This document shows, one piece after another, positions 56,661-61,059 of a stretch of DNA of 64,000 nt. Each line of letters opens with the position of its first letter. Positions within the stretch are counted from its first letter, which is position 1. This stretch comes from a virus, in the IMG/VR virus record IMGVR_UViG_3300046787_000129, positions 32,001 through 96,000 of that record. One strand, 5' to 3'. The notes under the pieces are model-generated. The model was not told where the DNA came from. It ran no database searches and saw nothing but the letters and a program-made list of their open reading frames with translations. The translations under genes were made by a program, and so were the position numbers.

Positions 56661-57092
56661 ATGAAAATATGCGTTAGATGTAATCAGGAAAAAGAATTAG
56701 AGCTTTTTGCCAAAGGTAAAAACTATAAAGATGGAAGACGTGGCACTTGTAAGCAATGTCATTCTAACTATATGGTGGAGTATTACAATAATAACGATGA
56801 ACAAAGAAAAATTAAAAATAAGATAAACTCTGGCAAAGATTTTAATTGGAAAAGGCATCGTATTTCTAAAGAATTATTTGAAGAGATGGTTGCAAAATTT
56901 GATGGCAAGTGTTATACTTGTAATATAAATAAGGCTACAAATATAGACCACGATCATTCTTGTTGTTCTGGACAAAGAAGTTGTGGTAAATGTATTCGTG
57001 GCATACTTTGTAGTCAGTGCAATACGGCTTTGGGATTAGTTAAAGATTCCAAAGAAGTATTACAAAATTTAATACAATATTTAAGCAATTAA
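56661..57092 (+). CDS. Endonuclease VII-type HNH, probable free-standing homing endonuclease
   Basis: CVRC, CKQC, CYTC, IDHDH, RGILCSQCNTALG; visibly more AT-rich than its neighbours. Confidence 0.85.
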   Translation: MKICVRCNQEKELELFAKGKNYKDGRRGTCKQCHSNYMVEYYNNNDEQRKIKNKINSGKDFNWKRHRISKELFEEMVAKFDGKCYTCNINKATNIDHDHSCCSGQRSCGKCIRGILCSQCNTALGLVKDSKEVLQNLIQYLSN

Positions 57093-57263: not shown

Positions 57264-57314
57264 CTAATGGTTCCGCTTGCACCACTTCCAGGGTATGGGA
57301 TAAAAGCAAGCAAT

Positions 57315-57464: not shown

Positions 57465-57549
57465 AATCTCACGATATAGGTTCGGGGCTGGTCACCTGTC
57501 TTACGGAACGACTCAGGGATATAGATCTGATTAATCTGATATCCCACCT

Positions 57550-57616
57550 GGATAGATGGTGTAATGGCAACACAGCATTGATCAGCAAGTTGGGAGTTCG
57601 ACTCTCCCTCTGTCCA
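57550..57616 (+). ncRNA. tRNA-like RNA / pseudo-tRNA with truncated anticodon arm
   Basis: Acceptor GGATAGA/TCTGTCC, D arm GTGT-AATGGCA-ACAC, T arm GGGAG-TTCGACT-CTCCC; only 18 nt between the D and T arms. Confidence 0.7.
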
Positions 57617-57716: not shown

Positions 57717-57790
57717 GGCTTCATAGCTCAATTGGTTAGAGCACCGCCCTGTCACGGCGGAGGTTGACGGTTCAAGTCCGTTTGGAGTCG
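57717..57790 (+). tRNA. tRNA-Asp(GTC)
   Basis: CCGCC-CTGTCAC-GGCGG; D arm GCTC/GAGC; T loop TTCAAGT. Confidence 0.92.
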
Positions 57791-57900
57791 CTCGAAGCAT
57801 AGGTCTGAACAACTTATGTGTAGATCGTATATCTGAAGATTACACTGTTCCAGCCGTGGAGTGAAGGCGTTCAGGCCCACAGACTTTGTGTTGAAGCGAG
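57791..57900 (+). ncRNA. Putative multibranch structured RNA
   Basis: GGTCTGAAC/GTTCAGGCC 9-bp stem enclosing two hairpins; outer CTCG/CGAG. Confidence 0.4.
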
Positions 57901-57962
57901 AACTAGGATATACAGCCAGTAGGAATGAACCCTTAACCAAAAGGTGACCATGACTGGCAAAC

Positions 57963-60771: not shown

Positions 60772-61059
60772 ATGGATAAACATGAGTGGAAAGAAAACGC
60801 AGCATGTTTAGACCTTGATAGAGACCTATTCTTTGATAAGTATGAGGAAGACCTAGAGCTTAGGCCTAAGATAGATGCCCTGTGCTCTAACTGTCCAGTA
60901 CTTAGACAGTGTTTCGCTGTTGGAATCTCCCAGAAGGAATGGGGAGTCTGGGGCGGAATCTATGTAGAGAACGGTAAGATCTCTAGAGAATTTAATAGAC
61001 ACAGGACAAAGCAAGATTGGGCTGAAACATGGCAAAATCTTACAATGGATTCGGAGTAA
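60772..61059 (+). CDS. whiB: WhiB-family transcription factor
   Basis: W...AAC...LFF...CSNCPV..QC...WGVWGG. Confidence 0.92.
   Translation: MDKHEWKENAACLDLDRDLFFDKYEEDLELRPKIDALCSNCPVLRQCFAVGISQKEWGVWGGIYVENGKISREFNRHRTKQDWAETWQNLTMDSE

What the first reader, a model, noticed from the sequence alone, without database searches (positions are those of the whole stretch)
57550..57616. tRNA mimic with intact acceptor, D and T arms but a shrunken anticodon arm
Seen: 7-bp acceptor, D arm with conserved GG, and canonical T arm, but only 18 nt (AGCATTGATCAGCAAGTT) where 22-23 are expected. That segment can fold into a bulged 6-bp stem with a 5-nt AUCAG loop and no variable loop. The rest is undamaged, which argues against random decay. 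Inference: an elbow/acceptor mimic that cannot decode and would lack a normal anticodon-nuclease site; it could be a decoy for tRNA-binding defence or stringent-response proteins, or a processing signal for the flanking RNAs.
Basis: partly seen in the sequence, partly recalled or inferred. Interest (0 to 1): 0.7.

Follow-up and report, generated by a model that had tools for sequence, protein, structure and literature searches.

The report
Anticodon-less tRNA-like RNA in phage
A phage of actinobacteria carries, inside its tRNA gene cluster, a conserved tRNA-shaped RNA whose anticodon arm is a 12-base stub, so it cannot read codons; it most likely marks cutting sites for neighbouring structured RNAs or has a still unknown partner.

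Summary
Window 57550-57616 (+) has a 7-bp acceptor stem, a D arm with GG, a 5-nt variable loop and a canonical T arm, but only a 12-nt stub where the 17-nt anticodon arm belongs. Rfam's tRNA model scores it 44.2 bits (cut-off 29); ARAGORN misses it.

It is neither an assembly error nor a recent deletion. Twelve further contigs carry it as six distinct sequences, always at the same place in the cluster. The stub is always 12 nt. Every stem stays paired, with changes on both sides in the acceptor, D and T stems.

The stub is a 2-bp GC clamp with an 8-nt loop that has no conserved U33 or triplet, so the RNA cannot decode.

It most likely descends from tRNA-Gly(UCC): a distant relative has that tRNA at the same spot behind the same leader RNA. 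The D and T arms are nearly identical, but the acceptor stem is rewritten and Gly identity is lost.

It always sits between long structured RNAs; in four relatives the downstream one is a manA RNA. My best reading is a processing mark like a plant t-element or mascRNA. A decoy role is not excluded, since the phage also encodes RtcB. Function is untested. This scan had already noted the same stretch of this genome.

The parts
57550..57616 (+). 67-nt tRNA-like RNA gene ('stub-arm tRNA'): acceptor 57550-57556 / 57609-57615, discriminator A at 57616
   Evidence: Rfam tRNA 44.2 bits; sequence; six homologous variants
57559..57573 (+). D arm: stem GTGT/ACAC, loop AATGGCA with A14, G18 and G19
   Evidence: stem pair 12-23 switches G-C to U-A in relatives
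57575..57586 (+). 12-nt stub in place of the 17-nt anticodon stem-loop: GC...GC clamp plus an 8-nt loop; no U33 and no conserved triplet
   Evidence: always 12 nt in every copy found
57587..57591 (+). 5-nt variable loop AAGTT, invariant in all copies
57592..57608 (+). T arm: GGGAG stem, TTCGACT loop, CTCCC
   Evidence: stem pair 3 switches G-C to A-U in L122
57387..57549 (+). 163-nt structured leader RNA (type A). It ends in the hairpin GGGATAT/ATATCCC (57516-57545), 4 nt before the tRNA-like unit
   Evidence: alignment fold; homologous in L122, L042 and L019
57617..57716 (+). 100-nt spacer RNA between the tRNA-like unit and tRNA-Asp. It stands where four relatives have a manA RNA
   Evidence: no homologue found outside this genome
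57315..57386 (+). tRNA-Gly(UCC), the upstream boundary of the leader RNA
57717..57791 (+). tRNA-Asp(GUC), the downstream boundary

Best explanation
It is a maintained tRNA-derived RNA gene that cannot decode. It most likely descends from the tRNA-Gly(UCC) that occupies the same slot in a more distant relative. It keeps the acceptor stem, T arm, D arm, elbow nucleotides and variable loop, which from established knowledge are what RNase P, 3'-end trimming enzymes and the CCA-adding enzyme read. The anticodon arm, the only part those enzymes do not need, is replaced by a 12-nt stub.

Inferred mechanism: the unit is transcribed with the tRNA cluster. RNase P cuts at 57549/57550, which fixes the 3' end of the upstream 163-nt structured RNA; that RNA is then capped by a hairpin 4 nt from its end. 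3' processing after A57616 frees the 5' end of the downstream RNA. The unit therefore acts as punctuation between two non-coding RNAs, as plant mitochondrial t-elements or mascRNA do. The excised 67-nt RNA is probably CCA-tailed and stable, but not charged with glycine.

Shown here: the architecture, its conservation, its synteny, and that it cannot decode. Inferred: expression, cleavage and role.
For: 1) Twelve further contigs carry the unit as six distinct sequences, always between tRNA-Asn/Gly and tRNA-Asp. 2) All 18 pairs are paired in all variants. Acceptor pair 4, D-stem pair 3 and T-stem pair 3 change on both sides; 0 of 500 shuffles reach the observed covariation score. 3) Substitutions fall only at positions that also vary in real tRNAs. 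U8, A14, G18, G19, A21, G53, T54-C56, A58 and C61 are invariant. 4) Its identity to relatives is 84-93%, against 60-90% for the true tRNAs beside it. 5) It is always preceded by a 163-193-nt structured RNA that ends in a hairpin 4 nt upstream. 6) In L042, L139, L049 and L137 a manA RNA starts 7-8 nt after it and ends at most 19 nt (0-1 nt in three of the four) before tRNA-Asp. In L018 a true tRNA-Asn takes that same boundary role. 7) The flanking modules are swapped independently of the unit. 8) No non-coding spacer above about 220 nt occurs without a tRNA or tRNA-like boundary; the one 484-nt gap is an ORF. 9) The neighbouring tRNAs and flanking genes in the window are all on the + strand, with no credible terminator inside the cluster. 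10) Precedent: t-elements are cut by RNase P and RNase Z (PMC1920247).
Against: There are no expression or end-mapping data. True tRNAs are nearby and could punctuate equally well, and relatives without the unit manage (L017, L024). Against the putative Gly ancestor, 5 of 7 acceptor pairs differ while 0 of 9 D and T stem pairs do (my own hypergeometric p is about 0.005, computed after the fact). The stub length is invariant and 8 of its 12 bases are conserved. Both points hint at a specific partner beyond mere processing. The six variants are closely related (92% mean column identity), so the covariation rests on three pairs.
Confidence: 0.45

Rival explanations
1. It is a tRNA-body decoy or competitor. 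The mature RNA binds a host or rival-phage factor that recognises the acceptor end or elbow of tRNAs, for example tRNA 3'-end-modifying toxins or acceptor-cutting nucleases. Because it lacks the anticodon arm and Gly identity, it drains neither GlyRS nor the ribosome.
For: The phage is equipped against tRNA damage. A Metallophos_2 phosphoesterase gene stands directly before an RtcB ligase gene. RtcB is present in both complete genomes that have the unit (G000, G001) and absent from the complete genome that lacks it (G004). The acceptor stem is rewritten while the D and T arms stay nearly identical to tRNA-Gly. Sequence conservation is as high as in real tRNAs. Phage tRNAs are known countermeasures to tRNA-cutting defences (PMC10264068, PMC12445682).
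Against: Classical anticodon nucleases mainly read the anticodon stem-loop, which is missing (established knowledge plus inference). No partner protein is identified. The RtcB co-occurrence is phylogenetically confounded and amounts to about one independent observation. A stoichiometric decoy against a catalytic enzyme is a weak strategy.
Confidence: 0.2
2. It is a dead tRNA gene (pseudogene) that persists by hitch-hiking in the cluster and has no role of its own.
For: It cannot decode. ARAGORN rejects it. The same genome holds other odd tRNA-like sequences. More distant relatives lack it.
Against: Every stem pair is kept in all six variants, with compensatory changes. No universal tRNA core base has mutated. 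The stub length is fixed. The unit is kept while both flanks were exchanged, and even in minimal clusters (Asn, unit, Asp, Thr).
Confidence: 0.1
3. It is one domain of a larger ornate RNA (leader + tRNA-like + downstream RNA, about 330-450 nt), comparable to GOLLD RNAs that enclose a tRNA-like gene. It would not be a separately released RNA.
For: Structured RNAs abut it on both sides. GOLLD in phage-derived mycobacterial tRNA clusters contains a pseudo-tRNA (PMC6582537).
Against: No GOLLD, ROOL or other large-RNA hit, even at E up to 10 or at gathering score in relatives. Upstream and downstream modules assort independently: A or B leader with manA, a 178-nt, a 100-nt or a 51-nt follower. That argues against long-range pairing between them.
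Confidence: 0.08
4. It is an aminoacylated carrier or regulator. An anticodon-independent synthetase would charge it, and it would serve a non-ribosomal aminoacyl transfer or a regulatory role, as tRNA-Other does in Bacillus cereus.
For: The acceptor stem sequence is strongly conserved (positions 1-3, 5, 6 and A73 are invariant). It shares A73 and G2-C71 with bacterial Ala identity (Table 1 of PMC9976931).
Against: Position 3-70 is A-U, not G.U, so Ala identity fails. There is no G-1 (His) and no long variable arm (Ser). Of the Gly determinants only G1-C72 remains (PMC9976931). No FemAB or Acetyltransf_6 transferase is found in the genome.
Confidence: 0.07

Closest known systems
Plant mitochondrial t-elements (tRNA-like processing signals)
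   Same: A non-canonical cloverleaf that keeps the acceptor and T arm, sits between other transcripts, and is a proposed or shown RNase P / RNase Z site that can be released as a small stable RNA (PMC1920247).
   Different: Here the setting is a phage tRNA operon and the unit separates non-coding RNAs, not mRNAs. The D arm and tertiary core are fully kept. There is no sequence relationship. Processing is untested.
mascRNA / MEN-beta tRNA-like RNAs (Rfam RF01684)
   Same: A roughly 60-nt tRNA-like RNA with a reduced anticodon arm that lies directly 3' of a structured non-coding RNA. RNase P cleavage there makes the 3' end of the upstream RNA, and the small RNA is CCA-tailed but not used in translation (established knowledge).
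   Different: mascRNA is eukaryotic. The RF01684 model gives no hit on this unit, so the two are analogous, not homologous.
Canonical tRNA-Gly(UCC) of related phages (L018, L019, L020)
   Same: Same slot behind the homologous leader RNA. The D arm is 17/18 identical and the T arm 16/17 identical. It is the best match among 149 tRNAs of related phages.
   Different: The anticodon arm is 12 nt instead of 17. Five of 7 acceptor pairs are changed, the discriminator is A instead of U, and the variable loop has 5 nt instead of 4. C2-G71, G3-C70, U73, C35 and C36, the Gly identity elements, are all gone.
Phage tRNAs altered to escape tRNA-cutting defences (anticodon-loop variants; phage tRNA-Thr with a shorter anticodon stem that resists P2 OLD)
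   Same: A phage-encoded tRNA-cluster member changed in the anticodon domain, in a phage that also carries an RNA-repair ligase (PMC10264068, PMC12445682).
   Different: Those tRNAs still decode and replace the cut host tRNA. This RNA has no anticodon loop at all.
YrlA-type bacterial Y RNAs and the tmRNA tRNA-like domain
   Same: Bacterial or phage RNAs that mimic the acceptor/T/D part of tRNA without an anticodon arm (PMC4201824 abstract; established knowledge).
   Different: There is no Ro/TROVE gene, no Y RNA or tmRNA hit and no G3.U70. Here the acceptor ends are free and the RNA is only 67 nt long.

Membership tests
tRNA (Rfam RF00005), homology | Score at or above the gathering threshold over the full model | tested here: met
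   44.2 bits against 29, model positions 1-71; homologues score 42-46 bits
tRNA, functional decoder | 5-bp anticodon stem with a 7-nt loop carrying U33, a triplet and a purine at 37 | tested here: not met
   12-nt stub of 2 bp plus an 8-nt loop. The loop reads ATTGATCA, AATGATCA, ACTGATCA or AAGGAACG across variants, with no common U33 or triplet. ARAGORN at default makes no call.
tRNA, L-shape core | U8, A14, G18, G19, A21, a purine-15:pyrimidine-48 pair, G53-C61, T54, C56 and A58 present | tested here: met
   All present and invariant in the six variants; position 15:48 is A:U
tRNA-Gly identity (bacterial) | U73, G1-C72, C2-G71, G3-C70, C35 and C36 (PMC9976931, Table 1) | tested here: not met
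   Only G1-C72 is kept. The unit has A73, G2-C71, A3-U70 and no anticodon.
t-element-like processing signal | Ends coincide with mapped transcript termini; cut by RNase P and RNase Z | not testable with these tools
   No transcript data. Only the geometry is seen: a hairpin 4 nt upstream, and manA 7-8 nt downstream in relatives.
mascRNA-menRNA (RF01684) | Match to the covariance model | tested here: not met
   No hit on 57550-57616 at E up to 10
GOLLD / ROOL large RNAs | Match to the Rfam models across the cluster | tested here: not met
   No hit in the window at E up to 10 or in 21 related loci at gathering score
Y RNA (YrlA) system | Ro60/TROVE gene and a Y RNA with a Ro-binding stem | tested here: not met
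   PF05731 is absent from the complete genome; no Y RNA hit
tmRNA tRNA-like domain | G3.U70 alanine identity and a tag reading frame | tested here: not met
   A3-U70; ARAGORN finds no tmRNA

The most novel reading that the evidence does not exclude
The stub-arm RNA is a purpose-built tRNA body. A former tRNA-Gly was stripped of its anticodon arm and of glycine identity. As a mature CCA-tailed RNA it engages a specific protein that reads the acceptor end and elbow of tRNAs. That protein could be a host tRNA-targeting defence or toxin, which the RNA would blunt, or the phage's own phosphoesterase-RtcB repair pair. This would be a new class of RNA counter-defence in actinophages.
Probability: 0.15. 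Interest if true: 0.8.

Novelty: new variant of a known kind. Interest (0 to 1): 0.55.

Why it matters
Gene finders drop this RNA, so phage tRNA clusters probably hide more conserved tRNA-shaped RNAs that do not decode. This family is a clean case: a datable origin from a real tRNA, loss of the anticodon arm and a rewritten acceptor identity. The same clusters also suggest that manA RNAs, filed as riboswitch candidates in 5' leaders, can be cut out as stand-alone RNAs by tRNA-processing enzymes. If the RNA proves to have a protein partner, that would add an RNA decoy to the contest between phages and hosts over tRNAs.

Tried and rejected
1) Assembly error or recent deletion: rejected. Independent contigs carry the same 12-nt stub. 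A scan allowing 8-30 nt between the same D and T arms found no normal-length version. A scan allowing stub interiors of 4-12 nt found only the known copies plus one chance match in coding DNA, L144.
3) Pairing of the stub with the flanks: rejected. Stub type (A or B) assorts independently of leader type and follower type; L139 has a B leader with an A stub, and L042 has an A leader with manA.
4) More divergent members: the R1 covariance model over 39 sources (363 kb) found none, only ordinary tRNAs at 55 bits or less. One metagenome scan added L139 and further copies. The prokaryote genome collection gave only an unrelated Bacteroidota tRNA. A loose 15-base pattern gave 81 chance hits.
5) Public phage records: only ordinary tRNA matches.
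6) CCA-adding enzyme, Ro/TROVE, FemAB and Acetyltransf_6 genes in the phage: none found.
7) Five-base complementarity of the stub loops to the 3' tail of 16S rRNA (UGAUC, AAGGA): I saw this by eye, judged it post hoc and within chance, and did not pursue it.
8) Promoter and terminator scan: counts do not exceed shuffles, so it is uninformative.
9) Literature searches found no description of this family.

Full report
**What is there.** The window is bases 32001-96000 of a 109,629-bp virus record rated complete. Its two ends overlap by about 1 kb, so the true genome is near 108.6 kb. A WhiB gene at 60772-61059 points to an actinobacterial host.

On the + strand ARAGORN finds tRNA-Asn, Met, Gly, Asp and Thr between 57097 and 58035, but nothing at 57550-57616. 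Rfam's tRNA model does match that stretch from first to last position. The score is 44.2 bits against a cut-off of 29 (E 9.6e-8), and 13 model positions of the anticodon arm are replaced by 8 nt.

Read directly:
- The acceptor has seven pairs, one of them U.G.
- U8 is present.
- The D stem has 4 bp around a loop with A14, G18 and G19.
- A single base occupies position 26.
- A 12-nt stub follows.
- AAGTT forms a 5-nt variable loop.
- The T arm is canonical and the discriminator is A.

**It is inherited, not an accident.** I used the downstream M23 peptidase gene to fetch 36 related loci. I then ran sequence-pattern scans of viral and metagenome contigs. Together these gave the same unit in 12 further contigs, plus one copy cut by a contig end. 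There are six distinct sequences of 67-68 nt, always between tRNA-Asn or Gly and tRNA-Asp. All score 42-46 bits with Rfam and all are missed by ARAGORN.

The stub is 12 nt in every copy. Scans that allowed other lengths found no normal-length version and no other stub length.

In alignment A1 all 18 pairs are paired in all six variants:
- Acceptor pair 4 runs U-A, U.G, C-G.
- D-stem pair 3 switches G-C to U-A.
- T-stem pair 3 switches G-C to A-U.
- No shuffle of 500 reaches the observed covariation score, and shifted registers drop to about 50% paired.

The other substitutions fall at positions 7, 9, 17, 26 and 59 and inside the stub. These positions also vary among real tRNAs, while the universal core bases never change. 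Identity to the window copy is 84-93%, against 60-90% for the neighbouring true tRNAs.

One caveat: the six variants are close relatives, so the covariation rests on three pairs.

**The stub.** Its consensus is GCA, N, T/G, GA, T/A, C, A/G, GC. The minimum-energy fold of the window copy is a cloverleaf with a 2-bp clamp and an 8-nt loop. On its own the stub is worth -1.1 kcal/mol, no better than shuffled sequence. The loop has no common U33, no common triplet and no purine at 37, so the RNA cannot act as an adaptor (inference from structure).

**Origin.** Among 149 tRNAs of related phages, the best match to the unit's D arm and T arm is the tRNA-Gly(UCC) of L018, L019 and L020. The D arm is 17/18 identical and the T arm 16/17 identical.

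In L019, a complete genome without the unit, the homologous type-A leader RNA runs up to that tRNA-Gly. The alignment puts the 5' end of the unit exactly on the 5' end of the tRNA-Gly.

Against this ancestor, five of seven acceptor pairs differ yet all remain paired, and none of the nine D and T stem pairs differ. My own hypergeometric estimate is p about 0.005, computed after the fact. The discriminator is A instead of U and the variable loop has 5 nt instead of 4. Of the bacterial glycine identity set (U73, G1-C72, C2-G71, G3-C70, C35, C36; PMC9976931) only G1-C72 remains. It also fails alanine identity (A3-U70), histidine (no G-1) and serine (no long arm).

**Surroundings.** The unit is always preceded by a 163-193-nt RNA of one of two unalignable types. 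Both types are structured, with some compensatory changes, and both end in a hairpin 4 nt before the unit.

What follows the unit varies:
- 100 nt in this window.
- 178 nt in the L006 group.
- A 50-nt leader plus tRNA-Gly in L136 and L138.
- In L042, L139, L049 and L137, a manA RNA (RF01745, 65-69 bits). It starts 7-8 nt after the unit. It ends 0-1 nt before tRNA-Asp in three of the four and 19 nt before it in L042.

In L018 the same manA geometry is bounded by true tRNA-Asn and tRNA-Gly. The leader and follower modules recombine freely around the unit. That rules out pairing between them and makes a single large RNA unlikely. Rfam gives no GOLLD, ROOL, Y RNA or mascRNA hit. No non-coding spacer longer than about 220 nt lacks a tRNA or tRNA-like boundary; the single 484-nt gap, in L122, is an ORF.

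**Wider context.** Besides this unit the genome has 11 normal tRNAs and at least two further odd tRNA-like sequences outside the window. It also carries a Metallophos_2 phosphoesterase gene directly before an RtcB RNA ligase gene.

RtcB is present in both complete genomes that have the unit and absent from the complete one that lacks it. These genomes are close kin, so this counts as about one observation. No CCA-adding enzyme, Ro, FemAB or Acetyltransf_6 gene was found.

**Reading.** With high confidence (about 0.85), this is a maintained, non-decoding RNA derived from a tRNA.

For its role I favour punctuation, at about 0.45. What is kept is what RNase P, 3' trimming and CCA addition read. 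What is lost is what they ignore. The unit stands where a true tRNA stands in relatives, between RNAs that need defined ends. This is how plant t-elements (PMC1920247) and mascRNA work.

The rewritten acceptor, the fixed stub length and the RtcB context keep a decoy or partner-binding role alive, at about 0.2. Anticodon nucleases are unlikely targets, because their recognition site is gone. A pure pseudogene fits the compensated stems poorly (about 0.1).

I found no paper describing this family. I class it as a new variant of a known kind.

Noticed in passing
L042:5585-5766 (-), L139:226-407, L049:10149-10330 (-), L137:198-379, L018:1497-1678: manA RNAs (RF01745, 64-69 bits) sit tightly between two tRNA or tRNA-like units: 6-8 nt after the upstream one and 0-19 nt (0-1 nt in four of the five) before the downstream one. 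This suggests they are cut out as stand-alone RNAs by tRNA-processing enzymes rather than acting as 5' leaders, in phages that appear to infect actinobacteria rather than cyanobacteria.
   Followed up: partly
outside the window: G000:C1:106094-106185 (-): A 92-nt Tyr-like type II tRNA with a 6-nt anticodon loop CTATAA (ARAGORN 'tRNA-?(Ile|Tyr)(at)'; Rfam 46.1 bits). The relative L122 has a normal tRNA-Tyr(GUA) at the syntenic place. A weak Sec/Tyr-like hit lies next to it at about 106190-106270.
   Followed up: partly
outside the window: G000:C1:~103434-103536 (-), = L143:235-338: Between tRNA-Met and tRNA-Leu lies another tRNA-like sequence. It has a 7-bp acceptor (CTTCCAG/CTGGAAG) and a canonical T arm (CTGGG-TTCGATC-CCCAG), but a rearranged core that the Rfam tRNA model does not match.
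   Followed up: no
outside the window: G000:C1:108134-108619 and 108.6 kb to 1146 across the contig junction: A Metallophos_2 phosphoesterase gene stands directly before an RtcB RNA ligase gene, about 2 kb from the third tRNA cluster. The contig ends repeat about 1 kb, so the record is circularly permuted or terminally redundant.
   Followed up: partly
window 57265-57314; also L122:2212-2260, L138:3299-3346, L136:2648-2695: A 50-nt hairpin element (92-96% identical) always precedes the window-type tRNA-Gly, whatever lies upstream (tRNA-Met, tRNA-Asn or the tRNA-like unit). The clusters look assembled from 'leader RNA + tRNA' cassettes.
   Followed up: partly
window 56661-57092 (+): An Endonuclease VII family gene (PF02945, E 6e-18) ends 4 nt before tRNA-Asn. 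It is a possible homing-type nuclease that could drive the cassette shuffling seen in the cluster.
   Followed up: no
window 57792-57962; also L139:483-653, L002:85-249, L138:3674-3846: The 171-nt spacer between tRNA-Asp and tRNA-Thr is conserved at 79-84% in relatives and has no Rfam match. It is likely another structured RNA.
   Followed up: no
L122:2756-3239: In this relative a ~150-aa ORF with a signal-peptide-like N-terminus is inserted between tRNA-Asp and tRNA-Thr.
   Followed up: no
L018:2145-2358: The type-B leader RNA, which precedes the tRNA-like unit in the L006 group, precedes a true tRNA-Glu in L018. The leaders are therefore not specific to the unit.
   Followed up: partly
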